This document shows positions 5,021 through 48,800 of a stretch of 64,000 nt of DNA, in pieces. Made by a program: the position numbers and the translations under genes. Location of the stretch: contig CAYHBB010000040.1 of assembly GCA_964354795.1 (NCBI GenBank), forward strand, positions 12,593-76,592, in the 5' to 3' direction. Every line of letters begins with the position of its first letter. Within the stretch, counting starts at the first letter, position 1. A model generated the notes under the pieces. It ran no database searches. It was given only the letters and a program-made list of their open reading frames with translations, and had not been told where the DNA came from. The stretch comes from an uncultured Planctomycetales bacterium. GTDB lineage: Bacteria; Omnitrophota; Gorgyraeia; Gygaellales; Profunditerraquicolaceae.

Positions 5021-5022
5021 CT

Positions 5023-27060: not shown

Positions 27061-27753
27061 TTATGACCTTAAAATCCGTGACAATCCCATCAGGTCAGCT
27101 TTCTCAAGGCTCACCCCGGCGCGATATTCATTCTCACCGATAGGCTTTGTCCAGATGACCTCGCCTCTGGTATAAACAGGCTCTCCCTTGTCAGGTATCT
27201 GCAGCCAGATCTCAACCGTCGTTCGCGGCATTAATTCTTCTTTGGTGCTAAAGCCAATACCCTTAGCGCTTACATCCTGAGTAAGAGCCAAGCCCTCTTT
27301 GCCGCTGTTTAGATCCAGGAACCGCACAGGAAATTTCACCACAAATCTCTGGAAAATCCTTTTATCTTCCATAGACTCTACCGCCTTTTCTTCGGGCTCA
27401 AAATCCTGCCACCAGGTTTTTTCCAGCGCCTCGCGGTGATTCTCGGTTATATAGCGGTAAATCTTTTCCTTGTCGCTGTCTGCGATCCTGGTAAAATACA
27501 GGCCGTAAGTATTCACCCCTTCGCTATGTTTATACCAGCCTACCCAGGCCTCAATATTCAGCACAAAAGTATCTGTTAGCACTAGGGTTAGCTTAATAAA
27601 CTTGTCTTCGGGAAGCTTAAGCGGCAGGGAAAACTTGACCCCCATCATGCTAATATCATCGACATGACAGTTGACGAATTTCTCGGCCCCGGCCAGTCTC
27701 ATCTGCGCCGGCATTCCTACTTTCCATCTGGCGAATCTTCTGCGTACTTCCAT
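27061..27753 (-). CDS. tandem PilZ-domain protein (putative c-di-GMP receptor)
   Basis: 230 aa. There are two PilZ signature pairs: RRRFAR ... DDISMMG (domain 1) and KRIFQR ... DVSAKGIG (domain 2). These match RxxxR + DxSxxG. Confidence 0.65.
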   Translation of the reverse strand: MEVRRRFARWKVGMPAQMRLAGAEKFVNCHVDDISMMGVKFSLPLKLPEDKFIKLTLVLTDTFVLNIEAWVGWYKHSEGVNTYGLYFTRIADSDKEKIYRYITENHREALEKTWWQDFEPEEKAVESMEDKRIFQRFVVKFPVRFLDLNSGKEGLALTQDVSAKGIGFSTKEELMPRTTVEIWLQIPDKGEPVYTRGEVIWTKPIGENEYRAGVSLEKADLMGLSRILRS

Positions 27754-27838: not shown

Positions 27839-30800
27839 TTAATTTTCCTCCTGGCCAAGATCCTGACTGTTTCCATCATTATCCGTATCGACATCTACAT
27901 AGTCTTTTCTGATAGCGAATAATCTGATGTTTTCTAATGCCTCACTCTTGAAATACGCCAGTCGCTCTGATAGTTCTTTATACATAGGGTAAACCGCGGG
28001 CCTCTTTTCCCATGAAGAGGCCTTTGCTTTTTCTTTTAACTTAAGTTGCATCTGGGATGCTTTTTCAAGGAGTGCCTTGGGATCATCCAATACCAGAGAA
28101 GGAAAATTCTTCTCGACATATTCCGCCTTTACCTGAATAAGAAATAATGTTTCTTGATCATTCAGCGGCTTCCCGGATATTTTATTGGCACTGTTGCGAT
28201 TAACCAGGAATCTGATATTTTCTATCCGTGAATAAATAAATATACCGTCATTACGGCCGATAAGCTGCCCGGATAGAGAAAGCTTTACCGCTTCATCATC
28301 CGGCATTAAGAAAACTCGCATTCCTGCGCGCGAACCCTCAACCACTATCACCTGTTGGGCCCCTGCTAATTTGGTGGATTTAATCAGCTCCGCTGTTTTT
28401 TTCTGGTCAAATTTTCCGATTGCGATCGGGGATTCAGGGACAAGATACGGGAAGTCGCTGATATCGGATATACCCGGGACAAAGATCTCAATAAGGCCAC
28501 CGATGGCATCAGGATTACCTGCCCCGCGCACAGAGTCAATTTTCGGCAAATTCTCGATCAGTTTCCCGATACAGTCAAGGGAGTCTTTTATGGCCTTAAG
28601 GCCTTCCGCGGCAAAACCCCTCTTATCATTAAGCGTAAGATCGAAATATGACTGTATTATATTAACCCTGTTATTGAATTTATGGATCACCGTCCGAAGA
28701 ACAGCCTGAAGGATCATTTTTGAAACCTTATCTTTCGCCATATTTTCTGCGATGTGTAACGTCTTGATCAAAGCATTACATGCGCCTAATGAACGGCTTA
28801 TTGCGGCACGTAATTCTTTTATTGCTTCTGAGCCTTCATCTGTAAGATGTTCCAACTTAAACCCGGATGTTATCGATCGCGCCTTATCGATATCGTTCCT
28901 CAAAATCCTATCCAGGACCCATCCCAGTTGACGCACAATCTGCAAAGGCGTTTTTTCGCCGCTTGGGTTGCGGATAGAATCTTCACAAGCCTTAAAAATA
29001 TCGCCTTCGCCTTTTTGCGCGTCTTTAAGGACTTTATTTATCCTGCAATAAGGGCTGCAAGAAGAGCTTTCGCCATGCACCAGCATCTGAGTAATGATCT
29101 CTCTACCGGATTCCGTCAACGCGAAATTCGTAAGCAGAGGGTCATCCGGCCAGAAATACGGCATAAAGTAATCGCATAATTCATGGCGAAAATCAGCTAC
29201 CCTCCTGCCTGACGTTACCCTATATCTTCTTAAGCTGCCGTTATGCCTGTCAGGGCTGTTTTCCCAGGCATACAAATAATCCTGATTAGCCCAGGTAAAT
29301 AATTCCCCGACTTCATGAGCCATGGATAGCTTCAGGACTTGCTTTAAGAAAGCGATTTTATCATCACGCGTAAATATAAGCCTCGTCGGTGAGAAGCCGG
29401 TAGCCTTGGCCATATCCACCAACTCCCCAAGGGATCCTTCCGGCATATCCGCAACCGTGATCTCCCCTTTTAATAAACCCTGAAGATCATTACGCTGTTC
29501 GAATATAGTAATGAATAGCGGGATGCTGCTCTCGGCCCGACGATAAGTGATCCCTTCCAGCAAGAATGCCGGCAACAGACTGACTGAATCCTGAATATCT
29601 TTATCGTTAAGAACCCTTATAAAGCCTTTCCTTGGCCCGCCTTCCGGAGCGCTCCTGCCGTATTCTCTGCGGTCTCTTTCTATGGTCCTTTCTACTACCT
29701 CCCTATCCTTACCCTCTTTAAGGGCCAACTCCAGGGAATATCTCTCCGCCTGCCTGAAGACATATCCTTCATCGGGATAAAACTCTGAGCTGGGTATTAA
29801 TAAGCGGCTATCTTTGGGATTAGAGTATAATCTGTTTTTCTTTGACTGGATCGTTGCGGCTAAGAGCGGGATGACGAAAAGCGCTGCTAATGCCGGCGGA
29901 GCATGAATTAATCCTGGGATTAAAATCGGGGCTAAGATAAAGCAAAGCGCCACCAGCACGAGGAACGCAATTAAAGTTTGGCCGGATCTACTAAAATTAG
30001 AACCGTCTCCTTTCTTGATACGGCTGGCAAGCCTGGCCACATCCGGCTTTTGGGGATGGGCCTTGCCATCAGACCGGGTTACGTCACCAAGGGCATCGAT
30101 TATATTTTGGATATCCATTTCATAATGCGTGTATAAACCTCCTAATGTCTTTCCCATGCCCGCTAATTTGTTCTTGAAATCACCCTTGGTCAGCTGGGAT
30201 AATCTTGACTTTCCGGCAGCTTCGAGAAGTTTGCGTATGAGGAACCGCTGGATCCTGACATCAACATTTTTCCAAAAGGTCTTTGGCCTATCGAAGAGCC
30301 TTCTTGCCGCTTCCTCCATTTTCTCCTCTGTCGATCCAATCTCCACCATTACATCGCCAAGGGCATCTACCATCTTTTGGACATTCATCCCATAATGCCG
30401 GCATAAACCTGCTAATGTCTTTTCTGAGCCCATCACCTGTGTATTAAAATCGTGCACAGTCAACTGGGATAATCTTGACTTTCCGGCAGCTTCAAGAAGT
30501 TTGCGCATGAGGAACCGCTGGATCCTGACATCGACATTTTTCCAACGAGATACTTTCCTCTCGAGGAGCTTTCTTGCCGCTTCCTCTATTTTCTTATCTG
30601 TCAATTTAAGTTTCACTTCCACATCGCCAAGGGTATCGATGATACTCGGGATATTCCGCCCGTAATAAGCGTATAAAGCGCTTAACGTTTTTTCCGTGCC
30701 CATTATCCCGGTCTCCATAAAATCAATATCCGTTAGTTGGGATAATCTTGACTTTACGCAGGCGCGCAGGAGTTCACATATAAGGAACCGCTGGATCCTT

Positions 30801-33800
30801 ACATCGACATTTTTCCAGCGATCCACTCCCTCCTCGAGAAGGTTTTTCGCCGCCTCCACTATTTGTTCCGCTGGCAATTCAATCTCCACATTGCCGAGGG
30901 CATCGATGATATTCTGGATATTTTCCCCGTAATGACAACACAGACCTATTAATGTTTTACCTGAGCCCAGCACCTCGATATAAAAATCATACGCGTTCAG
31001 CTGGGATAATCTTGACTTTCCTGTCTCTTCCAGGAGTTCGCGTATGAGGAACCGTTGGATCCTTACATCGACATTCTCCCAAAAGATATTTTGCCCCGCG
31101 AAGAGTTTTTTCGCCGCCTCCACTATTTGTTCCGCTGGCAATTCAATCTCCACATTGCCGAGGGCATCGATGATATTCTGGATATTTTGCCCGTAATGAT
31201 TGTATAGACCTGTTAACGTTTTACCCGAGCCCAATACCTCGTTATCAAAATCGTGCACGGTCAGCTGGGATAATCTTGACTTTCCTGTCTCTTCCAGGAG
31301 TTCGCGTATGAGGAACCGCTGGATCCTTACATCAACGTTTTCCCAGAAGGTTTTTTGTTTCTCTAGAAGTTTTCTCGCTGCCTCCTCTATTTGGCCCTCT
31401 GTCAATTCAAGCTCCACATCACCGAGGGCATCGATGATTTTCGCGACATCCCTTCCGTAATAAATATAAAAACCCCATAGCCTTTTTCCTGTGCCCATTA
31501 TCCTGGTATCTTTAAAATCAGGCGCATTCAGCTGGGATAATTTTAACTTTCCTGTCTCTCCCAAAAGCTCGTGTATGAGGAACCGCTGGATCCTGACATC
31601 GACTTTTCTCCAATGGATATTTTGCCTCTCCAGGAGGTTTCTCGCTACTTCCCCTATTTTTTCCTCTGTCAATTCAAGCTCCACATCACCAAGGGCATCA
31701 ATGATATTTTGAATATCACTCCCATAATGACAAAATAGACCGCGTAATGTCTTTCCTGAGCCCATTATTTTGATAGTGCTAAAGTTAGTTGTGGTCAGCA
31801 GGGATAATTTTGACTTTCCCGAGGCCTCCATGAGCTTGCGTATGAGGAAACGCTGGATCCTGGCATCAACATTACTCCAAGAAGCTATTTTTTCTTCGAG
31901 AAGTTTTTTCCCCATCTCCTCTATTTGTTCTTCTTGCAATTCAAGCTCCACATCGCCAAGCGCATCGACCATCTGTTGGATATTGCCTCCGTAATGATAG
32001 CATAAACCGCTTAATGCCTTTTTTGAACCCAGTATCTTGGCATTTGCGAAAGCATCCAGGGTCAGCTGGGATAACCGTGACTTTCCGCTGGCTTCCAGGA
32101 GCTCGCGTATGAGGAACTGCTGGACCCTTACATCGACATTTTCCCAGAGGGTTCTTTGCCTCTCGAAAAGTTTTTTCGCCGCCTCTTCTATCTCCTCATT
32201 TGTCAATTCAAGCTCCACATCGCCAAGCGCATCGACCACCTTTTGGACGCTGCTCCCATAATGGTTGTAAAAACCCCTTAACGTATTTTTTGCACCCAAT
32301 ACCTTAATATCAAAATCACTGCTTGCCAGCCGGGATAACCTTGACTTTCCGCTGGCCTTCAGGAGTTCGCATATGAGGAACCGCTGAACGGGAACAGGAA
32401 CCTTCGTCCAATGGATCGTGCCTTTTTTAAGTAAAAGGGTCTCTCCTTTTGCTTGTTCGTAATACACCTCATTTATTTCCTCAGGCAGGAATTTGCCGCC
32501 TTTGGGCCAACGCTTAAGCAAACTAACTGCGCCCGGAAAGTCCATCGCTGCCGAGGTCAAAAGCGCATCTATAAAACCCGGGAAGTGTTTCTCTATTTCT
32601 GCCGGGGTTAGGCCTACAGCTCTGTCGCGTCTCCTTTTTAATCTGATCAGATCATCTTTAGACATATAATCGGTAGCCTCAAGCCTGGCGTCAAATTCAT
32701 CAGCCCCTGTCTCCTCATACCAGGCTTTAACTTCCGGCAGGTGGCTTTTTATTTTTGCGACCGAATAATACGGCTCAAGCTGTCCCGATATTTCCGACAG
32801 CCTCTGCGCAAAATCTGACCTGACATGATCTTGTGCATCGTACCACTGGACAAGGAGTAGCTCCAGCTGGTGCCGGGTGCGCGCCGGTAAAAATGGCTTT
32901 AATGTCCTAAGTTCAAATAGGATATCTTCTAGTTCCGGATTTTTGCCGGCCAGATCCGTTTTTCTGACGCGGTCTGATGACGGCGATATTATGGCATCGG
33001 CTGATAAATTCGCTGCAAGATATAGGGCTTCGAGCTGGACAGGGTCAACCTCGGTCGTTTCAGGTTTATTTTTTCCAAGCGGCCTTATTTCTGATTTGGA
33101 AAAGAGAAGATCTTTTTCTTCTATTTCAGGAACCCGGGTTACATCTTTTACCTTCCTCAAGATCAAGACGTAGAACTTCTTTTCGACGAGGCTGCGTAAG
33201 GCATCGGCTGCATCTTTTCCCATATCGGATTTACAGCTGTTATATATTCTGTCGTCGAGCGTATTATTGATGGGAGAGTCGCTTACAATTTCAAACCCGA
33301 GTTCTGTTAATATGGAGAAAAATCCTTCGCATGGCTGACAGTTCAACGGAAGTGTGATCGCGAACTCTCCGGTCCGCTCATTCGGTTCCTCTGATGTGGA
33401 TGCCCTCAAAAGCCTGTTCGCATGAACGAAAACTTTGAGCCTCTCCTTTGGCGTAAGATGAACGAATACAAAGTTCGACACTAAAACGTCGTAGGCGCCG
33501 GCACGGTAGTAATCGCTTAAGGGAGCCTGCGAAAGATCAATCGGCCTATCAAGCGTTGCGGCACTTTCGACCAGGACCTTGTTCGGATTTTGGCCTTCTG
33601 AGTAAGATTCCACGTCCTTTTCAATATCTACTATTTTCGCCATCGGCATGGCTTTGCCGATCTGCTTTATTACTGTATAAAAGGCGGAGCGGCCCGCACC
33701 TATATCCATTACATTTTGCACCCTGCCTTCGCCTATTGCCCGCGCGTAGCGGTTTGCCAAATATAAGTTCGCCAGATGCGCCACCGTGGCATTGATGAAA

Positions 33801-36800
33801 TGATCGTCTACCGCTTCGTTGGCGCGTCTTGTATCGCCTCTTGCCCAGGCGCGGCGCGCCTTCTCAAGGGCCGTTTGGGCGCAGGTGAGTTTATTGTAAA
33901 TCTCATCGAGCGCGGTTATTTCTTCCCGGGTCAGGAGGTCTATCGGGCCCTGTGATTCATACCTCTGGATCGCGGAATCGAGGAACGCGCGCTCATTTGG
34001 TGTGAAGTAAAATTCTGCCATACCTTTACGTTTCATAATAACCTTTAACTTATCCAGCGCCTTCCGGACCTTTATTGCGCTTTCGAGTTTTGCGTAAAGC
34101 GTATCAATAATGCCGAAATCGTCATCGCCCACGCCAGAGCGGGCTAAAAGCTCGTTAAGCGACGCCCGCTCATCCGGTGATAACGCCTGGCCAAAACGAG
34201 ATATATCATCCAGCCTCTTTGCGTATAGCGACGCCTGTTTTCGCTTTTTCGCTATGGCAGCTTCGACAGTCCCTTTTTCCGGAGGAAAATGAGTCGCGAT
34301 GTCATCCCTTCCTATGGAGAATTCGAAACCGCTAAGCCTGTTCTTTATCGTTACGAAATAATCAGGATAGTTGCCGAAAGCGTCCGGCTTTTTCCTTGCC
34401 GTAAAGTTGCCGGGGATATAATATATATCGACCGTGCCGTCCGCTGCTTTTATGACGCCCCATTCCTTAATCGCTTCTTCATAAATCTTCGATGAGCTAT
34501 GGGCAACTATCACATTTTCGCCGATGCGGGGTTTTTCCGCTGCGCTAACCACCGCCCCCAGCACGCAGGCGCCGAGAATTAGCGCCAGCCCGTGCACTGC
34601 GGTGAGTGCCGCCAGCGCGCCGATCGCCGCCGATGCGACGCCGATCATTATCAAAATTGAGCTTGCGCCGAACGTATCAGGACCTTCCTTATCATCAGAA
34701 AGGTCTCTGCTTTTATAGGGTTCGATAAGCGTAGCCTTTTCGGGGTCATTTACGATTTGCCAATTAAGATCCGCGGGTTTGATCTCTTTGGCTATCCAAG
34801 CCATTGTCAGATGCAGATGAGCCGGCGCGCTGGTCAACTTTTGACGAGGATCCGCGATTCTAACGATGATATCCTGCGCCCGGCATATCCTACCTTCCTC
34901 AATCCCCTGCTCTGGCTGGACATGACCGTAAATGGTATAGAGTTGTTTTCCCTCTCCATCATAGACTTCATGGTTGACAAATATAGTATTACCGATAAAA
35001 TCGTCGATTATCCGCACAATCTTTCCGCCGTAGATAAGCGGCACTCCTTGGCCCGGTTGGACATATTGAATCTTACCTTGTGAATCTTCATACGAATAAA
35101 GATCTATCCCTTCATGGCTAAAGGTGCTTAAGCGCCCTTTTTTCTCCCCCCACCAATATTTTTGGGCCTCAAAGAGCATATCCGGTTCAAAGACCCACTT
35201 TTTAAACCAGCCCGGCAATTTGAAACTCATCAGCCATTTTAGAACCGGACATGCGGCCAGTTCTCGCAGCGCCAGGCGCCATTCTTGAAATGCCTTATCT
35301 GCTTCTTCGCTGATCTTCGATTCATTCTCTTCAAGCTCATCCTGAATACCGGCTATTTCATCTATCAAACTTATTAAAATCTTTCTTTGTTTGATGATTT
35401 CCTCGGGATTTGCCTCAAACAACTCCCTCAACTCCTTTACCCTATCCCTTGCTACCGCAATTAAATCATCGATCTCTTTCAGGTCTCTTGAGTTCTCCAG
35501 CACAGAATCTGCAATTTCTCCGATATCAATAGAAATCAAGTCAATTAAGTACAATATCCTGTCTTCCCGCTCACTCGTTATCGATTCTTTGCCATCATCT
35601 TTTAACCTGCCTCTTTTCCCAATGGCTTCTCTTATTTTCTCCTGGACTTTTGGATCATTGTTCGCCCGCCAGACGATTGCGCTTTCCGCAAGCCCCATCT
35701 TGCCTTTGTAGCGCGTTTCTTGCGCGAGGCTTCTTACGCTCACAGGCATACCTTTTCTTTTCAATCTCTCTATGGCAAGCGATATTTCTCTATCATATGA
35801 TGAACCGACAACCAAAAGAGCTCTCCTTAGATCCGGATGCTCGTCAACAAATCTTCTGACTGTATTCTCATTACTCAGCAATAATATCGCGATCTCATGT
35901 AGGCTAACGGGAGAGCCTTGCGCCTGTAAATATGATATCGCTGAACGAATACTTTTCTCGGTTACAAAAGTGAATTTCGCATCGTCTGTAGCGGATTGTA
36001 AAGTTGTGGATAAAAGCGGGAAGGCAAAAAGCGCGGCTAATGCCGGTCCCGCCACATGCAAGGCAAATAACGGCGCCAGCACCAGTCCGGCAAACGCAAA
36101 AATAGCACAAATACCCCACAGCGACTCAATGCGGCTTGAGCCGGATTTCCCTGCAGAAGTATCTATCCCTCTGCCTGACCTTATCCTGGCGCAGATAAAA
36201 CTTATGATTGAAACAAAGATGTAGGATATGACTCCGATACCCAAAACTATTCCTACCGGCTTGAGGTATTTCTTGAGGCTAAGCGGTTTTGTCTCGGTTA
36301 CAGCAGTTACCTTAGCCCAATCTTCGGGCGCAACTCGCGCCCTTATCGCCTCCAGCGCCGCTTGTGCCGCTTGGCGCTCTGCTTTGGAGTGCTTGATTTC
36401 ATTCGCAGATATAAAGCGAAGTGAAGGCACGGCGCTTATATCGCCAAACCGGCTAAGCCTATGAATAGCAGCTAAACGGATGTTCAAATGCTTTACCTTC
36501 AGGCATTTCAGTAATGTGTCCCTGTCCGAGACAGACTCGGTAATAGATATAAGGCTTGAAGCTGCGGAATTACGCACCCCCTCATCTTCGTCGCTCAAGG
36601 CTTTAATTAGTGGCTCTATTGCCCTGAGATCTTTAAGCTCGCCCAAAGAACAGGCTGCAACGGATCTTAATCTATCGTTAGATCTGCTGTTTAAGTTCTC
36701 GATAAAAGCTGATACCGCTTGCTGATCGCCGATCCCAATCAGGATCTTGGCTACAGATTCAGAACCATATATTTTGTATATTTCGATTAAAACCGGGACT

Positions 36801-39800
36801 GCTTGTCTGTCTCCGGTTTTACCTAAGGCGATTGCGGCAGCTTCCATATCCTCAAAGCTGTATAAATCCTTAAATTCCTCAGCGAGGGCAGAGAATGCGG
36901 GAGGGCCGATATCAGCTAAGGCCCCCCAATCTTTCATGCCGATCAAATATGCAATCTTTTCCTGTAAGTCTTGCGGCTTCCAATCTAACTTACTTAATGA
37001 TCTTGCGCTGCAGCCACGGAGAAATTGCTTTTCGTTTTTCAGCACTTCGATCAGGGCCGGAATCGCTTGTCTGTCAGATATTTGGCCTAAGACCCACGCT
37101 GATGTACCGCGGATATTGATTTCTTCCTTTTTGTCCCTTAATAATCCTATAAGGACAGGAACTACGGATGTGTTAATCTTGCCTAAGCCAGCCAATGCTT
37201 CTAATGCACACAAGCGGCATTGCAAATTATCCTTATCTTTTAATGCCTCAATAAGGCCTGGGACTGCGGGCTGTCCGATTTCAATGAGAGCTTTAACTAC
37301 CAGGCTGCTAGCTTTGCCTCTTAAGGCTTTGATCAAAACAGGAACTGCAGGTTCTCCGATCCTCGCTAACTCAGTAATACGGGACTGAATGTCTTCTCTC
37401 CTATTATTAGACCAACTGTAATATTCTAAACTGGATATTATCTCCTCTATTCTTTCTTGTGTGACTTTGACTGTTTGAGCAATCAACGGCTTTGCAGCGT
37501 TATTTGTTTCCTGCGCATAGATAGCAGTGGAACTAAATACAGCCCAAGATAAAGCAGACATAACTAATACGATAAAAAGTGTAGAATTGATTTTTCTTGA
37601 TTTGATTCTGGTGTAAATAAAGCTTATGATCGAAACGAAGACGTAGAATATGACGCCGACACCCAAGATTATGCCTGCGGGTTTAAGGTATTTTTTGAGG
37701 TTAAGCGGTTTTTTCTCGGGCGCAGCCGTGGCCTTGGTCCATTCTTCGGGAGTGGCGCGCGCCTTGATCGCCTCCAGCGCCGCTGTGGCTGAATTACGAA
37801 TTTGTTTTGACTGTTTGATCTCATTTACGCTAATATCCCTAAGCGCTGCGATCACGCTGGTATCTCCTATCTCGCCAAGCCTCCTTATAGCAACTGAACT
37901 GATTTCCGGATGCTTTGCCTTTGTAACTTCGCTTAAAGCAGATAAATTTGTGGTATTTTCCACAGTGGCTCTAAGGCCTTCGGTGGCGATTTTGGATACT
38001 TCTTCGTCTTTATCATCCACCAGCCTGATTAACGCACAGACTTTACGCTCGGAATCAATTCTTGCCAACGTACGTGCAGCCGGCAGGCGGCCATATCTTC
38101 TTGTGTCTTTCAAAGACTGAACGAGCGGCTCAACAGCCGGTTCTCCGATTTTAACCAAAGCCTCTTCGGCAAAAGAAGAATCTTCGCTAAAGCCGCCGAA
38201 CATCTGCATAAGGGGCCCTATCGTTTTCTCCGGCCTTATTTTCACCAAAACAGTGATAGCAAATTTCTTGATCTCCGGGTCCTGGACAAATATATCCCTG
38301 ATCAAATATTCGGCTGCGGCCGGAGCGCTATTAACCAGCCCTTCATAATCCTGCTTTGCGGCCATATAGCGTATTTTATCTTCTTCTGATGCGGGAACCC
38401 ATTCCAGCGAAGTTAAGACTGAAACTACGGATTTTCTTTCCTGCGCGTAGTCATTGGAGAGATGTTTTACTAAGCGCGGGAGGCTCGGCTTTCCTATATT
38501 AATGAGCTTCTGCCAATCTTTACAGGCAATAGCGTAATCGATCTCCTCTGCTTCGCCGCGAGGACACCAATCCTTCTTTTTAAGCGCAGCTATTGCCGCA
38601 GATCGGACAGAATCCCTGCGATCAGTAAGAAGGATAAGGATTGAACCCGGCGCTCGGCTTTCGATTTCAAACAGCTTGGCGGAAAGTTCGTTATAATTAT
38701 ATTTCGCGGTTGTATACGAGATCTTCTCGTCCGAAGTCCGGGGTTTCCATCCAGCCATATCCAGAACCTTTATGGCAAGAGAAACTTTTTCGTTATCTGC
38801 ATCAGTAAGGAGATCGACCATTTGCGGGACAGCCGCATTTCTATTTTCCAGCGTCGGAACGATCCAATTATCCCTCTTGTATGCCAATAAAGGGCTTGCG
38901 TTTTCACTGGAAAACTCTTCAATCAATACGGGGGTCTCCTTAATAGAAGTATTGATTTTAAAAGAAAGAAAGATTATACCCGGCAAGAAAATGATCAGAA
39001 ATCCCGGAAGGCACTCTCTTCTTTCAAGCTTGTCCAAAACCAGCAAGAACGCTACTGCTGTAAAAAATCCCCATATAAGCGTACCCGCGGTAATAAGCGC
39101 GGGATTAAGCAGGTAAAGGACGATAAAAAATGCATTTATCAGCATAAAACCTAAAGAAGGAGAGTTTCCCTTGAGGCCGTCATCCCTGAGCTCGCAAATC
39201 AAGCTTATCGCGAAGAGCAATAGGTTTATCACCATCGCGGCAAGGATAACTTTTGCGAAAAAGGGCGTGGCTACGGCGGAACAAAGCTTTAAAACAAGTA
39301 GATAGATTGCTATCGAACCGAAAGAAAGAATATTAAATATCATGCCGGTCACCCCCCAATTTACGGCGGCAGGGTGTTTTTCGTCGAATATCCTTTCGTT
39401 TCCCATTTTACGCATAAAATAATAAAGAACAAAGACGCCTGCCAACATCACTATTACAACTATTCCTAAGCCGATGCCGTCATTTACAAAGGGGGTACTC
39501 AATGCCAATGGCAGAATGGCGCAATTGGCTTGCGTTATTTTTTTGACATCCTTTCCCTTTAGTTTCTGCCTTACAGTTGAGTTTTTACGGGAAAACACGT
39601 AACTTACTGCTGAAGCAAAAATATAAAACAAGGCAAATACTCCTAAGATTAGTCCTACAGGCTTGAGGTATTTCTTGAGGCTAAGGGACTGCTTGCTTGT
39701 TGCCTTGGCCCATTCTTCAGAGGAAACCCGTGCCTTAATCGCCTCCATTGCCTCTTGCGCTGCCTGGCGCTCTTCTTTGGAGTACTTGATTTCGTTTTGG

Positions 39801-42800
39801 GAGATGAATTGGAGTTTCGGGATTGCGCTTAGATCGCCCACCTTAACAAGACGCTTGAGAGAAAGTAGGCGAAAATCATAATCATTTACCTTCAGTAATC
39901 TTAATAATGCGGGGTTATCAGAAGAAGATTCTACGATGAGCTTAAGGGTTTCGGCTGCGGATTGGCGGTCAAACACCTCGTCATTTTTCATAACTGCGAT
40001 GAGAAATTCAACTGCGGAAGAGCCGATTTTAGCTAAGGCTTCGACTACGGATGGACGGACATGCCCATACTCATCTTTTAAAGCTGTGATAAGAGGCTTA
40101 ACTGCTCTTGGGTCTTTAAGTTCGGCTAAGGCTTTGGCTGCGGAGAATCGGATATCCCAATCGCCATAATCCAAGAATACTACCAACCTTTCTATTTCTT
40201 TTTTTGTAGCTTCATCTGTCTTAGTTGTCGCGGGGTTTGAATTTGTATCCTGCGCATAGGTAGCTGGAGAATAGAATATTGAAGAGGATAAAGCGAACAT
40301 CAATAATATGGTTAAAAGTTTGAGATTGGATCTGTTCAGGCGGGATCTTATCCTGGCGCTGATATAGCTTGCAAATGCAATAATAGCATAGAGCGCAGCC
40401 AGCGCGCCGGCGATTATTCCTGCGGCATTGAGGTATTTTTTGAGTTGAAGCGGCTTTTTCTCGGCTGCGCCAGTTGCCTTGGCCCATTCTTCTAAAGAGA
40501 CGCGCGCCTTAATCGCCTCCAGCGCTCCCTTGGCCGCCTGGCGCTCTCCACTGGAATACTTGAATTCGTTTTGGGCGATAAATTGCAGATTAGGGATAAC
40601 AGCTATGTCGCTAAACTGTCCCAGCCTCTGAATAGCCAAGAGATTGATTCCACCTTCATTTACTTCAATTAACTTTAGTAATACAGGTATATTTTGGGTG
40701 GATTGAGCAATGGATCGCATGACTGAAATTACTATTTTATGCTTAGCTTGATCCTGGTCTTTTAAAAGCTTGATAAGCGGTTCGACTGCTGGCTGTCCGA
40801 TTTTAATCAAGGTATTTGTCACTACCTGAAGGACATCGGGATCGTCGATTGTCAATAAGCTTAATAATGCCGAAACGCTGTTAAGAGACCCTATCGTCTC
40901 CCTTACTTCCTTAAATTCTTTTAGAGCATAGGCGATCGCGCGCTGGACTTCCTCATTCTTGTCTTCCTTCATTCTAATTAAAGTATCAAAATATTTCTTC
41001 AATGCTTCGTGGTCACCTTTGCTATCAACAATGCAAGCGCCCAAAGCGACGATAGTCCGCGCCCTGACTGCAGGAACCGCATTAGTTAAGTGCGTAGCAA
41101 GCAGGTCTCTATTTTTTGTTTCTTCGCATATTTTCTTTAAAGCCGTGGCTTCCTCGCTATAAACAGATAAATTACTATTATCCCATAATCTACGTGACTC
41201 TAATAAAGGAAGGATGGCCCGAGGGTCCCTCTTTTCTCCCAGCACTTTCACAATATTATCTCCCGTATGACCAAATATCTCGCCTTCTTTCAACTCCTCT
41301 ATTAATGGCTCTATGGTTCTTGGGTCTTGCAATGCGCATAAGATCTCGATAGGTTTCTCATCGCATAGATCTTTATGAAGCAGACGAGTAATGCTTTCTA
41401 AATCCAATTCTCCTTTCCTGATCGCTTCGCAAGCTTCTTTTATATCATTATCGCTGCGGCTATCATTACTTGGAATACAGAAAATCCTCCAAACAATAGG
41501 CGCAAGAGTTTTCTGTAAAACATCATTGACTGTCGCCTCGGCGACTTCATCATGCCCTCTCCAACTCCTAAGGTTATAATAATGTATCAACCCCTTCAGA
41601 ACATTATCATCCTCCAGCATCTTAGCTAATTCTTCGACAGAATGCTTTCTGACCTTTTGGTCATCGTCCCATAATCCTGTCAATAACTCATCTCTCTTCT
41701 GGGCATATGCATTAAGTTCTTTTGTTTGTTTTGTGCAGGCATTTGCAAAAAGGAATACTAAAGAAAATAAAGTAAACATTAAGAAAAGGCTCAGGAGCAT
41801 GGAATTAAACCTGCCTGATTTTAACCTGGCGCGAAAGAAACTAATAAGGCAGATAATAGGATAGAATAAAATAATCGCCCCTAAGATTATTCCCGCGGGC
41901 TTGAGGTATTTTTTGAGTTGAAGCGGCTTTTTCTCGGCTGCGCCAGTTGCCTTGACCCATTCTTCTGTGGAGACGCGCGCCTTGATTGCATTCAGAGCTC
42001 CCTTGGCTGCCTCGCGCTCTGCTTCCTTGAACCTAATTTTATTTGAGGCGATTAAATTTAGCCTGCGGATTGCGCTTGTGTCGCTGAACTGGCCAAGGCG
42101 CTGGATAGCGATAAGCCGAATTCTAGATTCCTTATCTCCTGCTTCTGTTAACCTTAGTAAAGCGGGCACATCTTTTAAGTTGCCCGCGAGAGATAAAAGA
42201 GCCCCAAGCGTTGACCGATTAACATCTTCACAAGTATGCCCCAAAGCTTTAATTAACGGCTCTACCGCTCTTTGGTCTGCGATCTTACCTAAAGCTTCGG
42301 CTGCGGATGAACGAAAGCTCCATTCTGTATAGCCTGCATCACCCAAAGCTTTAATCAATGGCTCTACCGCGGTTCGATCGCCGATCTTACCTAAGGCTTC
42401 GGCTGCGAGAGAACGGGCCTTTGGGTCCTTACCACTTAGAACCTTAATCAAAGGTTCTACTGCCGGCTGACCGATTTTTACCAGGGCTTCGGCATCGGGG
42501 GAGCGGGCAAGCCAGTCTTCATCTTTTAATGCCTCATCAAGAGCAGGAACTGCGGCAGGGCCGATTTTGGCTAGGGCTTCAGCTGCGGCTGAACGGACTT
42601 CTGGATACTGGTATTGTAAAACTCTAATAAGTGCTGGAACGGCATCCTTAGCAGCAGGACCGATTTCACCGAGGGCTTTGGCTACGGATATGGATGAGCG
42701 GACATACCAAAGTTTATCTTTCAATGCTTCGCTAAGGGCTGGGACCGCGTCCTTAGCGGCAGGGCCGATTTTACCTAAGGCGTCGGCAGCGGAACAACAT

Positions 42801-45800
42801 TCATCAGAGGAAGCCCTTCTTTTTAGCTGCTTTATTAACTCTGCTATCTTCTGTTGCGTTGTCTGATCTGTCTGCGCGGTAGTTTGGATTGCGGTATTAG
42901 TAGTTTCCTGCGCATATGCGAGATTCGGATTAGTTATAGCTAGAAACGAAAGGATGAAAAAGAACGGCAAAATCCAGAATCTGCGTAGGAGCGAATTCGG
43001 GGCGCGAGGTTTTTGCGGGCTGGATTTGATCTCGGTCCGGGCATTCCCCCCGATTGTATCCAGAATTGACTGCGTAGCAATAAGGTTCTTAAGCTCTGTT
43101 TGAATAATATTTTGTTTTTGCTCTGCTATTGTAGGCGAGTTGCATCCGACGTTAATAGAGACTGCGCGCGGGAAAGATGCCAGAAGCCTTCTCTCCATGC
43201 CGAAACTCCTTGCTTTATTTCCAACAATAATAAGATTTTCTTCGCTCAGGCCTGTGCGGGAAATAAAATCCCTTGCCGCTTCAAAAGGACCAAATCGCAG
43301 GATATTTAGGCTTTCTTCGCCCTGGAAGATGATTTCTGCGGAAAGGCCTTTTGCCCGCAGCGCCTCCTCTATCTCTGAAGCGAATTTCCGCCTTTCCTTG
43401 GCTAATTTGCTGCTGATCTTTATTTTCACTTTATAGTCCTGCCGCTTGATCTTATAAGAAAGGCCTGTGAGAGCATTTTTTACTACTTCCAAGATAGTTT
43501 GCCGGTCATTCGCGCTCAATTCAAAACGGTAATAACCGACTTTATTCCCCCGCTCGTCAAAACCAAACCCCCTGGTCCCGGTGTTGGAATATAAATGCAA
43601 GTTTTTAAGCAGCTCCTTCGGGATCTGCGCCCAGACTCGCGATTCCAGATTATCTTCTGTTTCATCGGTGATGATGGCAATATGCTTACCGCAACGTAAA
43701 AGATTGACAAGATGATCGTTGATCGCCAGGCTGACCGGCTGCTTAAGCGTAGCTATACAATCCTCCAAGCCGAAGATGAAACCATTGATCTTGCTTAAAT
43801 CGATTTTTACTCCCTGGATCGCGACCGCGCTTGAAACTTCCTGCGGCGCCTTTTCCTGTTTGTCAATTTGCGGCTCTATAACCTTAACTTTTTTGCGCTC
43901 TGTAACGACAATGCCGCTGGCCTTAGCCTTGATCAACCTGTCCCTGGCCCAGGAAAGCGTTTCTCTGACCTTCTTGCTGCCCTCAGCCTTTAAAGCCTTC
44001 TCCACCGCGCCTAAGGCGCCGGGATCTCCCAGTTGTCCCAATGACCATGCTGTCTTTTCTCTTACCTCTTCTGATTTATCGACCAATAGCAGTTCGCTTA
44101 AAACCTCTACGACCTCCGCGGTTTTTTCCGCCAGGGAATCCGTCAGGTCGCCTAAGCCTTCGGCAATAATCGCCCTTAAAGTCTCATCCTTGTCATTCAA
44201 GTATTTAATGGCCTCGCTGACCACCGCCTTGCCTCCTACATCAAGATATGCCTCTGCGGCCATCGTCCTGATTATCGGATCCTTATCCTCTTTGATGGTC
44301 TTCAGCAGCACCAGCAAAACTCCGTTATCTTTGATATTGCGCAGTGCCTGGATCACCTCCTGCCGCACCTCGTCGCTCCTTTCATCCTCTAATGACTTTG
44401 CTAATGCGGGTATGGTGGAGGGATCCGCGAATTTCTTCAAAGCCCTGGCTGACACCTTTCTCACTTCAACCGCAGAGTCATTGTGCAGTGCCGCTATTAA
44501 GTCCTTACCTGAATCCTTGAGGCCAATGACCCCTAATGAGGAAGCGGCCCAATACCTTACCTCCCTGCCCTTATCATTAAGCAGCGCCTTTCTTAATGCC
44601 TGCGCGATAGTCTCGTTCCCCGCATAATCGCCTAAAGCGCCGGCAGCATCGGCGCGGATTTTAGCGTTTCTATCGGTAAGCTCATCGATCAGACGGCGAA
44701 CCTTTATTTCATTATAGTTATTGGTAGTGGCGACGGGGTCGGCCTTGGCATCGTCCATTTTCACAGCCTCGGTTTTAGCTACGGGAACACTGCGGGGCAA
44801 CACAGCTTTTTTCCTCTGCGATTTCGGCATCAGGCTTTCCAGGTCCCTCATCTCCAGCTCATACAAATGGTCGGCTAAATGGACGCCGTCTTCAGTGAAT
44901 TTGAAGAAAAGATGCACGATCCTTAAATACTCCTTGTCGTCAAAATATCCCGGAGTGTGCCCGGTATTTCCGGCCATTTTCTTTACGCTGTCAGGCAGCT
45001 CCTTATCCGTCACCACCGTATTTACGAAAATGAATGCCGGACTTTTTAAATCCCTGATATTCAGCACATCGGGATATCCGGCATTCTGCCTGTATTGCCT
45101 GATATGCAATTTCTCGCCCCTGGGATTCCAGAAACGGAAACCATAGAGGCTGGTATCTTTTAGGCCCCTTTCAGAAATATTGTCAAACTCTTTCTGGATG
45201 ATTTTCTTTATCGCTTTAAAATCGTTATTTGCCCTTAAATCCCGGATAAACTTCGCGTCTCTGTATACCAGATGTGCGTACCTTGATTCGTCCTCCCCGG
45301 AAATGATCTCGTTAAGCGCGATCGCAAGATTAAGGTAGCCCTGGTGGGCATCGGGATAACGGTTGTGCTGGGTAGTGTCCACCACAATGACCACCGGCCT
45401 CTCAGCAAGCATCCTGTACAATATCTGGCTGCGCACAAATTTAGGGTCGATATAATAGGGGTTGGTATGGGTCTCGCTGGAGCCCACCTTGGCAAAGACT
45501 ATATCAATGTCATCCAGTTTCAGATCGCCCTCGATGAACGCCGCGGAAAATCTGCCCAGGGTAAAATTCGGCATTATCCAGACATCTCTGCCAAAAGAGG
45601 CGGACTGGACCTTGACTGCCTCAATGAACTCCTTGAGTTTAAGCGCCTCGTAAGCCGCATAGACAAGCTCATGCTCTATTGTGCCGCTATCGGGCAATCC
45701 TGACAGGCCATGGCAACCTGTACCGGAAAAACGGATATAGTCCTTGTAAGAAAGATTCTTAAATTGCATTGCGATAATGCGGCTGTTATCCACAATGCGC

Positions 45801-48800
45801 CTGAAATTCGAATACTCCAGTTCCGTATGCATGGGGTTATTGATATCGAACCTGCCGGCTTTTATCTGGGTCAGCATTGCCTGCCAATCCCTGTATAGCG
45901 CTATCCTGTCCGCAGCGCTCTTGGCCAGATTGATCAGCTGCTCCGTCGGGAACAGGCCGTGCCGGATGATCTCAAAGATTATATCCAGGGCGCCGCTTAA
46001 TGTAGCCTTGCTCATACCCTTAAAGACCTCGTCGTAGAAATTCTGGATGTCAAAGCCCTGCTGTTTCAACCTATACTCGAGCAACCCGATCGACTCGACG
46101 GTCTGCTCGGCATTGATCGGCCGCAGATCTTTGTCGAACTTCTCGAAGTAGGCCCTGAAACTGCCTTTGTCCTGTATAAGCGCGGCATCGCTTAGCTTGG
46201 TAAGGATCTGCTCAACAATATCCAGGTTGACTTTAAATTCGGACAGATTCCCGGAGACATCGATCGCTACGGGGACCGGGATCTCCAGCAGATGCCGGAT
46301 ATCCTTATTCTGCTGATGCATCCGGTAAGCGATCTCGATCACCGCGCCCAGGACTAAGAGGTCTTCACCCTTGGCGAACTGCTTTCTCGCCTGGTTCCTT
46401 ATGTCATCGAATAGCCTTTCTCCGATCTCTTTCTTGAATCTGCGCAGGATATAGAAATGCTCGGGGTTCAAAGCGGAGGAATAATCGTATTCGCGGGATA
46501 TTGACTCAAATCTAAGTGGGAATATTGAAAACCTGAAGGAAAACCTGACTAAATCTACACCTTTGCCAAATAAGGCAACTCCGGAATCAGACTGCAGCAG
46601 GATAACCGGGATCAGTATGGCTGCAAAAAGAGCAAATGCTGCAGCATAGGTGTATATGACATTAAATATGATCAAGGTAACGCAGATAACTACCGCAATT
46701 ATTCCTACAATAAATCCTGCGCCGCCCCTGCTCTCTGTCCCAAACCTTACCACCTTGGCTAATGTATCTTTGTCTATCCTCTCTTCCTTGCCGATCTTGA
46801 CCACCTCGGACATGGTCTTAAGGAAAGGCAAAGCGGCTTTTCCCTGCGCAGGCGGAGCCCTGATCTCCTGGATGAGCCTCTGGATAAGATAGGCTAAGAT
46901 CCCCAGGACAAATATCCCCAGGACTGCATAAATGACCGGGCTTAAGTTTATGGTAGCGATGGAACCAGCAAAGGCTAAAGGAATAACGGGAGCAAAAGAA
47001 TTTAATGAGGTTGTGTTATTCTGATTCTGCGGCCTCTGCGTCAGGCGGGACCTTATTCTTGCGCAGACAAAGCTTATTATCGAAATAATGGCATAGAACG
47101 CAGCCAGCGCGCCGGCGATTATCCCGGCGGGCTTGAGGTATTTCTTGAGGTTAAGCGGTTTTTTCTCTGGGGCAGACGCAGCCTTTGCCAATTCTTCGAG
47201 AGAGACGCGGGCCATAATTGCCTCCAGCGCCTGCTTGGCTGCATCGCGTTCTTTCTTAGAATGCTTGATTTCATTTGAAGCGATGGCTCTTAAATCATCC
47301 ACTGCATCTAATGCGCCTATTTGGCCAAGGCGATTTATAGCGGCCAGGCGAAGATCGGAATCTTTAAGCTTTAATGATCTTATTGCTACTGAAGCGTCTT
47401 TTGTCGATTCAATGAGCAATCTGGTCTTTATGACGGCGAACTTGCGGATGTCACTAGTCTTGGCCTCCAATAATTTTATTAATATCTCTATATCCTCGGT
47501 TGAATCGGCTATAGGCTGAAGGGCGCTACTGATCTCCCATTTCATGCCCTCTTCGTTTTCGTTTAGGAATTTAACAAGGGCAGCGACTGCTCCAGCGTCT
47601 TGAATTCTGCCTAGCATCTCAATAACGGCCCGTTTCCGAGACGACGCTCTAGCATCCCACCTTACAGCCGAAAACTCATCAATAAGCGGCCCCGTAGCCT
47701 GTTTTCCAACCTTTAGCAAAGCTTCCTCTACATCGGAATCCTCTACTCCAAACGCAATAAGGGTCCTTGCAGTTTCTTCGTTGCCGATTTCACCGAGCGC
47801 CCTAATCGACTCTTTACACTTTAACCTCCCTAAAGCTCCCACTGCGGGTGGCCCGATCCTGACCAGCTCTGGCCAATCTTTATTTGCGATCAAATATAAT
47901 ATTTTTTCTTCTTCGCTTGCCGCTGACCAACCCGCTTCTTTCAAGACTGCTACGGCGCCCTCTCTTATACGCAGGCAATCATCCTCAAGAAGAAAAACCA
48001 AGAAAGGCGCTGCTTCATTCTTCAGGCTGCTTAATGCCTTCCAGTCCTCTTTAGCAATAAAATATTTTATCTTTTCCACATCATTTTTCGGCCGCCAACC
48101 CAGCCTGCTTAAAACCTCAACCATACCTTCGCGCATCTTGCTATCCCCCCGGGGAAGTAATTCTATCAAAGGTTTTATCGCCTGAGGGCCGAGGGAAGAT
48201 ATATCATCGACAAAAGAGTCTTTTCCCCTATTTTGGGCTAGTGCATAAGCAACTTTTTCATGATAAGTTCCCGGCTTCCACCTCGCTGCATCAAGCACTG
48301 TCAATGCAAGATCGGATTTTCTTTTATCGCGATCCGTGAGCAGCTCGATCATTAAAGGGCTGATTTGCCGGCTGCTCCTACCCGCCAGCACGGGAATTGT
48401 CCAGTATTTGTTACGGAAATTTGATGGCCCGGAAGACTCCGTTCTTTCAGCTTCTTCTCTTTCTATGTATTCGCGGATAAGCGCATCATTATCTTTAAAA
48501 GCAGTGGGAATCTTGAAAGAATAGTAGATAATTACCGGTAATACAAAAAGAGCAAAGTAGCCTAGTCTTGCCCTCCAACCGAACTCATCTAGGCTTAAAA
48601 TTGAGATAAGAACCGAAAGGGCGAATACAGAAGAGACGATCAGCCAAAATGATATAAGCCCGGGATTAATGATGAAAAGGGCGAGCAACAGGCCGTTTAA
48701 GATCGTGAAACCGATAGGAACAGCACGGCCAAATAGATCTTCATCCTTTTCTTTCATCATCAGTAAAGAGGCTCTTAAGGCTAATATACAATTCAAGGCA

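What the first reader, a model, noticed from the sequence alone, without database searches (positions are those of the whole stretch)
33200..36200. Enzymatic block near the C-terminus: M23 peptidoglycan endopeptidase domain plus a SAM-methyltransferase-like domain, flanked by TM helices sharing a PALAALF(A/V)(F/I)PLL motif
The M23 motifs are clear: SHEGIDLY then ...YGHV...APAHLHLTMAW (nt ~34790-35165). About 400 residues downstream there is a class-I MTase motif I (NVMDIGAGRS, nt ~33700). The block is bracketed by hydrophobic segments carrying near-identical motifs (GPALAALFAFPLLSTTLQS at ~35980 and APPALAALFVIPLLAATIQS at ~29900). A lytic peptidase tethered to an enormous membrane/HEAT scaffold is consistent with cell-envelope attack or remodelling. 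Pairing an M23 peptidase with an MTase in one polypeptide is unusual.
Basis: partly seen in the sequence, partly recalled or inferred. Interest (0 to 1): 0.75.

Follow-up and report, generated by a model that had tools for sequence, protein, structure and literature searches.

The report
Peptidase and methyltransferase in giant protein
The region encodes a real but divergent M23 zinc peptidase domain and a real SAM-methyltransferase domain in the tail of a giant (at least 12,019-residue) membrane protein of an Omnitrophota bacterium. Both probably face the cytoplasm, so this is more likely a membrane-tethered enzyme platform than a cell-wall-attacking lysin.

Summary
All the motifs lie on the minus strand inside one ORF (27839..63898, at least 12,019 aa) of an Omnitrophota bacterium.

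- **Direct scans:** Pfam misses M23 entirely and scores the MTase below threshold.
- **M23 domain (aa 9564-9733):** it is 33-47% identical to a large family of ~200-aa proteins that pass Pfam Peptidase_M23. All five catalytic/Zn residues (H9595, D9599, H9659, H9694, H9696) are conserved. hhalign places three of them on LytM H260, H291 and H293.
- **PALAALF segments:** these are a true duplication (z 7.6). Each is the second arm of a ~45-residue helical hairpin.

The "cell-envelope attack" reading is weakly supported:
- The M23 subfamily has no signal peptide (236 of 241 members).
- It is fused elsewhere to cytoplasmic-type enzymes.
- It is separated from the SAM-requiring MTase only by a hairpin.

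Both domains are therefore predicted to be cytoplasmic. Giant Omnitrophota proteins carrying peptidase and MTase domains are already described. The leaderless M23 subfamily is not. Interest is moderate.

The parts
27839..63898 (-). Giant ORF of at least 12,019 aa. It has N-terminal HAD and SLOG domains, about 9,000 aa of HEAT arrays interrupted by TM junctions, and a C-terminal enzymatic tail.
   Evidence: The frame is open to the window end.
36182..36250 (-). TM1 of the last (13th) KKYLKP junction (aa 9217-9239), followed by a basic loop, RIRSGRG...
35990..36124 (-). Hairpin H1 (aa 9259-9303). It is a 45-residue uncharged stretch with an H-VAG-P turn. The second arm carries PALAALFAFPLL.
35210..35989 (-). 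Helical linker (aa 9304-9563) with two winged-helix-like segments and a coiled-coil-like stretch. Function unknown.
   Evidence: Only a weak TFIIE_beta hit; otherwise read from the sequence.
34700..35209 (-). M23-family metallopeptidase domain of the leaderless subfamily (aa 9564-9733). Catalytic residues are H9595 and D9599 (HxxxD), H9659, and H9694/H9696 (HxH).
34532..34663 (-). Hairpin H2 (aa 9746-9789). It is a 44-residue uncharged stretch with an A-V-H-G turn, lying between the peptidase and the MTase module.
32675..34534 (-). Conserved ~620-aa 'module B' (aa 9789-10408): a small beta domain, long helices, a class-I MTase and a helical tail. It is shared with 10 other large proteins.
33146..33730 (-). 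Class-I SAM-dependent methyltransferase core (aa ~10057-10251). Motif I is D10065-x-G10067-x-G10069-x-S10071, and the acidic residue at the end of beta2 is D10091.
30071..32401 (-). Nine tandem ~89-aa repeats (aa 10500-11276), 52-60% identical to the first repeat. Fold unknown.
29852..29983 (-). Hairpin H3 (aa 11306-11349), a duplicate of H1. The second arm carries PALAALFVIPLL, and both flanks are basic.
27842..29851 (-). C-terminal 670-aa region (aa 11350-12019) with no detectable family.

Best explanation
The region encodes part of the C-terminal tail of a giant inner-membrane protein of a Candidatus Omnitrophota bacterium.

**Shown:**
1. aa 9564-9733 is a genuine, divergent M23-family zinc metallopeptidase domain with a complete catalytic set (HxxxD, H, HxH). 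It belongs to a large, uncurated subfamily of ~200-aa proteins that lack signal peptides.
2. aa 9789-10408 is a conserved module whose core is a class-I SAM-dependent methyltransferase fold with intact SAM-binding motifs.
3. The tail is punctuated by three ~45-residue uncharged helical hairpins. The first and third are duplicates carrying the PALAALF motif.

**Inferred:**
- Each hairpin enters and leaves the membrane on the same side. The wHTH-like linker, the M23 domain, the MTase module, the 89-aa repeats and the last 670 aa would then all sit on the cytoplasmic face, the same side as the N-terminal HAD and SLOG domains.
- The extra PALAALF arm at junction 9209 returns the chain to that side.
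- The block would therefore work as a membrane-tethered cytoplasmic enzyme platform. The Zn peptidase would cut a peptide bond in a substrate available at the inner leaflet or in the cytoplasm, such as a cell-wall precursor or recycled stem peptide, or a protein. The MTase would use cytoplasmic SAM to methylate, or to sense SAM for, an unknown partner.
- It would not act as a secreted wall-degrading lysin.

The substrates are unknown.
For: **Organism**
- MnmG in the window is 87% identical to an Omnitrophota MAG, and the next best hits are also Omnitrophota.

**M23 domain**
- An exhaustive phmmer search found 551 relatives.
- The small relatives pass Pfam PF01551, for example 46.3, 37.7 and 37.0 bits against a 28.7 cutoff. 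Their sources name them M23 or DD-metalloendopeptidase.
- The catalytic residues are invariant or nearly invariant across 82 sequences.
- The family profile hits solved M23 enzymes (8s3m E 6e-7; also 9gy1, 5kqb, 6yj1).
- hhalign against LytM (E 3.1e-5) pairs H9659 with H260, H9694 with H291 and H9696 with H293.

**MTase**
- Sub-threshold hits, all to methyltransferases, came from three libraries.
- Motifs are invariant in 11 sequences.
- The profile hits more than 20 PDB methyltransferases.
- Relatives score 31.7-34.3 bits on Methyltransf_11.
- The AF2 model has pLDDT 81.
- Foldseek gives 82 hits at E<=1e-3, and the top 50 are all class-I MTases.

**Cytoplasmic placement**
- 236 of 241 small M23-subfamily members have no hydrophobic N-terminus.
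- The subfamily is fused to GNAT, GIY-YIG, NUDIX, PP2C, GlcN6P-isomerase-like and GT2 domains.
- Module-B relatives are mostly free of TM segments and carry HTH arrays or a kinase.
- The three hydrophobic stretches in the tail are 44-48 aa, about double the 17-27 aa of the single TM2 in the simple junctions.
- Both flanks of H3 are basic.
- A crude count gives 52 passes, an even number, between the N-terminal HAD/SLOG domains and aa 9304.
- The 2026 preprint 10.64898/2026.06.07.730766 reads TM-only Omnitrophota giants as membrane-anchored with cytoplasmic enzyme domains.
Against: **Topology**
- No dedicated topology predictor was available. The hairpin reading and the pass count are hand-made and error-prone.
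- The flank before H2 is acidic.
- The 2023 preprint 10.1101/2023.11.21.568195 reported TMHMM placing most domains of such giants outside the cell, while calling those predictions unreliable.

**Leaderless does not prove a non-wall substrate**
- Phage M23 endolysins are also leaderless. However, no phage record matched this domain.
- Two related contigs place a stand-alone relative beside FemAB-like, glycosyltransferase and Glyphos_transf genes, which would fit a wall-related substrate.

**M23 fold and direct scans**
- The M23 fold itself was not confirmed structurally. The single-sequence AF2 model was poor (pLDDT 46.7) and its fold search returned only noise.
- Direct Pfam scans of this sequence fail for M23 and are sub-threshold for the MTase.

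**MTase function**
- The MTase fold also matches SAMTOR, a non-catalytic SAM sensor.
Confidence: 0.5

Rival explanations
1. The M23 domain faces the periplasm or outside and cleaves peptidoglycan cross-links, either in the cell's own wall to accommodate the giant scaffold or in a prey wall. The MTase stays in the cytoplasm. This requires the aa 9746-9789 stretch to cross the membrane an odd number of times, and H1 to act as a single pass.
For: - The catalytic residues are intact, and M23 enzymes characterised so far are peptidoglycan endopeptidases (established knowledge; names; PDB hits).
- The flank before H2 is acidic.
- Omnitrophota giants have been linked to predation and wall degradation, with TMHMM placing most domains outside (preprint 10.1101/2023.11.21.568195).
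- A FemAB-like and envelope-gene neighbourhood surrounds one stand-alone relative.
Against: - The subfamily is overwhelmingly leaderless and is fused to cytoplasmic-type enzymes.
- The hydrophobic stretches around the domain are double-length, consistent with hairpins.
- Winged-helix-like segments precede the domain.
- The gene neighbourhoods of stand-alone relatives are mostly unrelated to the wall.
Confidence: 0.25
2. The M23 domain is a self-processing protease that cuts the giant polypeptide, or partner proteins, into functional pieces. The MTase is an unrelated passenger module.
For: - Processing of giant Omnitrophota proteins by built-in peptidases has been proposed (preprint 10.1101/2023.11.21.568195).
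- The catalytic set is intact.
- The giant has a highly modular, repetitive build with 13 stereotyped junctions.
Against: - Most family members are ~200-aa stand-alone proteins with no giant partner.
- The junctions carry signal-peptidase-like AxA sites rather than Gly-Gly sites.
- To my knowledge, no M23 enzyme is known to act as a polyprotein-processing protease.
Confidence: 0.1
3. One or both domains are non-catalytic. The M23 domain would be a LytM-type regulatory or binding module (as in EnvC, NlpD and SpoIIQ). The MTase fold would be a SAM sensor (as in SAMTOR) that gates the scaffold.
For: - The third glycine of motif I is replaced by serine throughout the family.
- Regulatory LytM domains are common (established knowledge).
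Against: - Regulatory LytM domains have lost the Zn ligands. Here all five catalytic residues are present and conserved across 82 sequences.
- The MTase motifs and the beta2 acidic residue are invariant. They are needed for SAM binding, but they do not separate sensing from catalysis.
Confidence: 0.08

Closest known systems
LytM/lysostaphin-type M23 zinc endopeptidases (Pfam PF01551; e.g. S. aureus LytM, PDB 8s3m lytic endopeptidase)
   Same: - HxxxD, H and HxH catalytic motifs.
- Profile-level homology.
- Relatives pass PF01551.
   Different: - No signal peptide in the subfamily.
- A conserved Trp-rich N-terminal extension (W-x-F-x-P-G-M-L-F...WWG...R) and a ~12-residue insertion right after HxxxD.
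- Embedded between membrane hairpins in a giant protein, and predicted cytoplasmic.
- This copy falls below Pfam detection, and no NCBIfam model fits the subfamily.
Class-I SAM-dependent methyltransferases of the Methyltransf_11/25 type (e.g. nucleomethylin/RRP8 2zfu, MM_2633 3dtn, phosphoethanolamine N-methyltransferases)
   Same: - Motif I, the acidic beta2 residue, and the post-beta4 and beta5 motifs.
   Different: - Part of a ~620-aa module with an N-terminal beta domain and ~190 aa of long helices.
- Motif I is GxGxS.
- Tethered by hairpins.
- In relatives the module is followed by HTH-like arrays, and here by nine 89-aa repeats.
- The substrate class cannot be determined.
Giant multi-domain membrane proteins of Omnitrophota (West-Roberts et al. 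2023, bioRxiv 10.1101/2023.11.21.568195; 2026 preprint 10.64898/2026.06.07.730766)
   Same: - Phylum.
- Many TM segments, HEAT_2 scaffolding, and HAD, LOG/SLOG-like, methyltransferase and peptidase content.
   Different: - About 12 kaa rather than more than 30 kaa.
- HEAT-dominated.
- No SecA_DEAD, C39 or S8 domain in the Pfam scans.
- Neither paper mentions M23 (0 occurrences in each).

Membership tests
Peptidase family M23 (PF01551) | HxxxD motif supplying two Zn ligands | tested here: met
   H9595-E-G-I-D9599 is present. H is invariant and D at least 90% conserved in 82 sequences. The motif lies just upstream of the hhalign block, where LytM H210/D214 would be, separated by a ~12-aa insertion.
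Peptidase family M23 (PF01551) | HxH motif (catalytic His plus third Zn ligand) and the central catalytic His | tested here: met
   hhalign aligns H9694 and H9696 with LytM H291 and H293, and H9659 with H260 (E 3.1e-5). HMM alignments to 9gy1 and 5kqb place the same motifs together.
Peptidase family M23 (PF01551) | This sequence scores above the Pfam gathering threshold | tested here: not met
   No PF01551 hit, even at E<=10, on the isolated domain or in the long scan.
Peptidase family M23 (PF01551) | Significant homology to proteins that are members | tested here: met
   The domain is 33-47% identical (E down to 1e-35) to proteins scoring 31-46 bits on PF01551. It scores 209 bits on the family HMM.
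Peptidase family M23 (PF01551) | M23 beta-sheet core fold | tested here: inconclusive
   The single-sequence AF2 model had pLDDT 46.7, and Foldseek returned only noise.
Peptidase family M23 (PF01551) | Peptidoglycan endopeptidase activity at an extracytoplasmic location | not testable with these tools
   Indirect evidence points the other way: the subfamily is leaderless, and hairpin topology suggests a cytoplasmic location.
Class-I SAM-dependent methyltransferase | Motif I (D/E-x-G-x-G-x-G) and an acidic residue at the end of beta2 | tested here: met
   D10065, G10067, G10069, S10071 and D10091 are invariant in 11 sequences. They align to motif I of 3dtn.
Class-I SAM-dependent methyltransferase | Seven-stranded Rossmann-like fold | tested here: met
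   [not shown]
Class-I SAM-dependent methyltransferase | This sequence scores above the Pfam gathering threshold | tested here: not met
   Methyltransf_11 scores 18.3 bits against a 21.2 cutoff. Relatives P0002, P0007 and P0104 score 31.7-34.3 bits.
Class-I SAM-dependent methyltransferase | SAM binding and methyl transfer | not testable with these tools
   Needs biochemistry. A SAM-sensor role (as in SAMTOR) is not excluded.
Omnitrophota giant proteins ('Archaeovorin' type of West-Roberts et al. 2023) | Encoded by an Omnitrophota genome, with many TM segments plus HEAT, HAD, MTase and peptidase content | tested here: met
Omnitrophota giant proteins ('Archaeovorin' type of West-Roberts et al. 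2023) | Length over 30,000 aa and a divergent SecA_DEAD domain | tested here: not met
   The ORF is at least 12,019 aa within the window and open at the edge. No SecA family appeared in Pfam scans covering the whole ORF.

The most novel reading that the evidence does not exclude
The M23 domain represents a widespread family of intracellular M23 metallopeptidases: at least 794 clusters at E<=1e-10, found in Brocadiales, Desulfobacterales, Chloroflexota, Omnitrophota and others. They are leaderless, catalytically intact, and have no described function. They would act on a cytoplasmic substrate rather than on the sacculus. In this giant protein, the peptidase and a SAM-methyltransferase module would be held together at the inner face of the membrane as a coupled cut-and-methylate station for a peptide, lipid-linked precursor or protein.
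Probability: 0.3. Interest if true: 0.6.

Novelty: new variant of a known kind. Interest (0 to 1): 0.4.

Why it matters
M23 peptidases are textbook extracytoplasmic cell-wall hydrolases. A large, conserved, leaderless branch with an intact active site would widen what this family is thought to do. Here it is wired into the predicted cytoplasmic tail of a giant Omnitrophota membrane protein.

That placement would also temper the habit of reading any peptidase domain in these giants as evidence for prey-wall degradation.

The analysis also gives a concrete, testable domain and topology map for about 2,800 residues of a giant protein that standard annotation leaves almost blank.

Tried and rejected
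**Searches on this sequence that failed or fell short**
- Direct Pfam, NCBIfam and PHROGs scans of the two domains gave no M23 hit and only sub-threshold MTase hits.
- Single-sequence phmmer against PDB gave E about 1 for both domains.
- The word-indexed homolog search found nothing, both with the block and with the module-B alignment. Only the exhaustive search worked.

**Structure attempts**
- Single-sequence AF2 of the M23 domain gave pLDDT 46.7, and its Foldseek search gave no hit at E<=0.001. Both were discarded.
- The AFDB50 fold library was unavailable.

**Searches for related loci**
- The block as a single query found no relative in genome contigs or JGI metagenome contigs.
- An exact look-up of the neighbouring PilZ protein found nothing on record.

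**Context and function leads**
- Seven gene neighbourhoods of stand-alone M23-subfamily genes showed no conserved partner. Redox genes appeared in three places and FemAB/envelope genes in two related contigs, so no function could be drawn from context.
- A phage origin of the leaderless M23 was rejected: tblastn against 50,697 phage records gave no match.
- The 89-aa repeat profile had no significant PDB match.
- The middle hairpin H2 is not sequence-related to H1 or H3.

**Rejected reading**
- The motifs are not chance matches.

Full report
**What is at the coordinates**

The finding lies on the minus strand inside a single ORF, 27839..63898, of 12,019 codons. The frame is still open at the window edge, so this length is a minimum.

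- SHEGIDLY at aa 9594
- YGHV at aa 9657
- APAHLHLTMAW at aa 9691
- NVMDIGAGRS at aa 10062
- PALAALF at aa 9285 and aa 11335

MnmG in the same window is 87% identical to a Lac Pavin Candidatus Omnitrophota MAG. The next best hits are also Omnitrophota, so the organism is an Omnitrophota bacterium.

The giant protein starts with a HAD hydrolase and a SLOG (LDcluster4) domain. About 9,000 residues of HEAT repeats follow, interrupted by dozens of hydrophobic segments.

**The M23 call**

Direct scans fail:
- Pfam gives no Peptidase_M23 hit, even at E<=10 on the isolated domain.
- NCBIfam gives nothing, and PHROGs only a weak 'endolysin' hit at E 0.015.
- phmmer against PDB gives one hit at E 1.1, a lytic endopeptidase aligned over YGH...HLH.
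- The word-indexed homolog search found nothing.

The exhaustive HMMER search found 551 relatives. Most are ~200-aa proteins that are 33-47% identical to aa 9564-9729.
- These proteins are Pfam Peptidase_M23 members, several above the gathering threshold: 46.3, 37.7, 37.0, 33.6 and 31.4 bits against a cutoff of 28.7.
- Their sources name them M23 metallopeptidase or peptidoglycan DD-metalloendopeptidase family proteins.

In an 82-sequence alignment, H9595, H9659 and H9696 are invariant, and D9599 and H9694 are at least 90% conserved.
- The family profile hits solved M23 enzymes: 8s3m at E 6e-7, plus 9gy1, 5kqb and 6yj1.
- hhalign against the LytM catalytic domain gives E 3.1e-5. It pairs H9659 with H260, H9694 with H291 and H9696 with H293.
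- The HxxxD motif sits just upstream of the aligned block, behind a subfamily-specific insertion of about 12 residues. That insertion probably explains why local alignments and Pfam start after the motif.

The M23 fold was not confirmed structurally. The single-sequence AF2 model was poor (pLDDT 46.7) and its fold search returned only noise.

**The methyltransferase call**

On this sequence alone, three independent libraries give sub-threshold hits, all to methyltransferases:
- Methyltransf_11 at 18.3 bits against a 21.2 cutoff
- CpaM at E 8.5e-4
- a PHROG tRNA methyltransferase at E 6e-3

The exhaustive search showed that aa ~9790-10400 is a conserved ~620-aa module shared with ten other large proteins. 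In their alignment the following are invariant:
- motif I, D-x-G-x-G-x-S (D10065, G10067, G10069, S10071)
- the beta2 acidic residue, D10091
- several downstream positions

Further support:
- The module profile hits more than 20 solved class-I methyltransferases (best E 1.5e-5).
- Three relatives exceed the Methyltransf_11 cutoff at 31.7-34.3 bits.
- AF2 on the alignment gave a good model (pLDDT 81.1, pTM 0.69).
- Foldseek returned 82 PDB matches at E<=0.001, and the top 50 are all class-I SAM methyltransferases.

The fold and the SAM-binding motifs are therefore established. The substrate is not. Neighbours include small-molecule, lipid-head-group, protein and RNA methyltransferases, as well as the SAM sensor SAMTOR.

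**The hydrophobic segments**

The giant protein has 13 stereotyped junctions. Each has a KKYLKP motif, a 21-23-residue TM1 and a short, strongly basic loop (+4 to +12). In the simple junctions, a single uncharged stretch of 17-27 residues follows, often ending in an AxA-like site before Q/E.

The last junction, at aa 9209, is different. Its second uncharged stretch is 46 residues long, with a His-x-x-Gly-Pro turn, and the PALAALF motif forms its second arm.

Two further double-length uncharged stretches follow:
- aa 9746-9789, between the peptidase and the MTase module
- aa 11306-11349, which carries the second PALAALF

The first and third stretches are truly related (z 7.6; 0 of 2000 shuffles reach the score). 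The middle one resembles them only in layout.

**Which side of the membrane**

This is inference, not measurement. Several observations place the whole tail (aa 9304-12019) on the same side as the N-terminal HAD and SLOG domains, that is, in the cytoplasm:
- The stretches are double-length, which suggests hairpins.
- The loop before H1 and both flanks of H3 are basic.
- A crude count gives 52 membrane passes before aa 9304, an even number.

Independent biology agrees:
- The MTase needs SAM, which is found in the cytoplasm.
- Module-B relatives are mostly free of TM segments and carry HTH-like arrays or a Ser/Thr kinase.
- 236 of 241 small members of the M23 subfamily have no hydrophobic N-terminus.
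- The same M23 subfamily is fused elsewhere to GNAT, GIY-YIG, NUDIX, PP2C, GlcN6P-isomerase-like and GT2 domains.
- The 2026 Omnitrophota preprint reads TM-only giants as membrane-anchored with cytoplasmic enzyme domains.

Evidence on the other side:
- The 2023 preprint reported that TMHMM places most domains of such giants outside the cell, though it called those predictions unreliable.
- The flank before H2 is acidic.
- Phage endolysins show that a leaderless M23 can still target the wall. No phage record matched this domain.
- One pair of related contigs places a stand-alone relative next to FemAB-like and envelope genes.
- The other neighbourhoods are unrelated to the wall and share no conserved partner.

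**Is the pairing unusual?**

Profile HMMs of both modules were run against the giant protein and the 15 large relatives. Each module occurs once in the giant, and no other protein carries both. The sample is small, and some of those proteins are contig-end fragments. Searches for close relatives of the block in genome and metagenome contigs found none.

**Verdict**

The proposed role in envelope attack is the weaker reading. I favour a membrane-tethered cytoplasmic enzyme platform (confidence about 0.5) over an outward-facing lysin (about 0.25).

Giant Omnitrophota proteins with HEAT, HAD, methyltransferase and peptidase content are already described. Neither paper mentions M23, and no curated model or paper found here covers the leaderless M23 subfamily.

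I rate the finding a new variant of a known kind, with moderate interest.

Noticed in passing
window 63898-64000 (minus strand): The giant ORF's frame has no stop between its listed GTG start and the window edge. The protein may be longer than 12,019 aa.
   Followed up: partly
window ~36000-60160 (aa 1240-9300), 13 sites: Stereotyped junctions separate the HEAT arrays: a KKYLKP motif, a 21-23-aa TM, a basic loop (+4 to +12) and a second TM. The second TM often ends in a signal-peptidase-I-like pattern (V-F-A|Q, V-N-A|Q, T-H-A|Q, I-Y-A|Q, A-Y-A|Q), and the first TM at aa 581 is followed by A-S-Y-A|E-E. These look like internal signal peptides, so some HEAT arrays may be exported and the giant may be processed as a polyprotein.
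   Followed up: partly
window 30071-32401 (aa 10500-11276): Nine tandem ~89-aa repeats, 52-60% identical to the first repeat, with consensus VDVRIQRFLIRELLEAxGKSRLSQLT..DF...GSGKTL.GLY.HYG.NIQ.IIDALGDVELELT. There is no significant PDB match and only a weak Pfam DUF4290 hit. In relatives, the same position after the MTase module holds HTH-like arrays.
   Followed up: partly
window 27842-29851 (aa 11350-12019): The C-terminal 670 residues have no hit in Pfam or NCBIfam, and only non-significant hits (E>=0.1) in PHROGs.
   Followed up: partly
window ~62300-63760 (aa 48-530): The N-terminus of the giant carries a HAD-type hydrolase (Hydrolase_3, aa 48-245) and a SLOG/LOG-like domain (LDcluster4, aa 378-530). 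Both lie before the first TM at aa 581.
   Followed up: no
window ~53600-54340, ~48500-49220, ~38950-39660 (aa ~3187-3435, 4894-5128, 8080-8313): Three multi-pass blocks of about 6-7 hydrophobic segments interrupt the HEAT arrays. They may be repeated integral-membrane domains.
   Followed up: no
window 35210-35989 (aa 9304-9563): Two winged-helix-like segments (a weak TFIIE_beta hit) and a long acidic coiled-coil-like stretch precede the M23 domain.
   Followed up: no
window 27061-27753 and 1-26869: A PilZ-domain gene lies immediately downstream of the giant gene. Further on are an ABC sugar transporter, two GH2-like/TPR proteins, ROK and LacI regulators, a ribonucleotide reductase with a TSCPD domain, iPGM, MnmG and a Pho-type phosphate module.
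   Followed up: partly
relatives P0006, P0078, P0008, P0034, P0042 (not in the window): The leaderless M23 subfamily domain also occurs fused to GNAT, GIY-YIG, GlcN6P-isomerase-like plus NUDIX, PLP-enzyme plus GT2, and PP2C plus DUF7790 domains. Stand-alone copies sit near redox genes (rubrerythrin/SOD/flavin reductase, flavodoxin, AhpC/cytochromes) in 3 of 7 neighbourhoods examined.
   Followed up: partly
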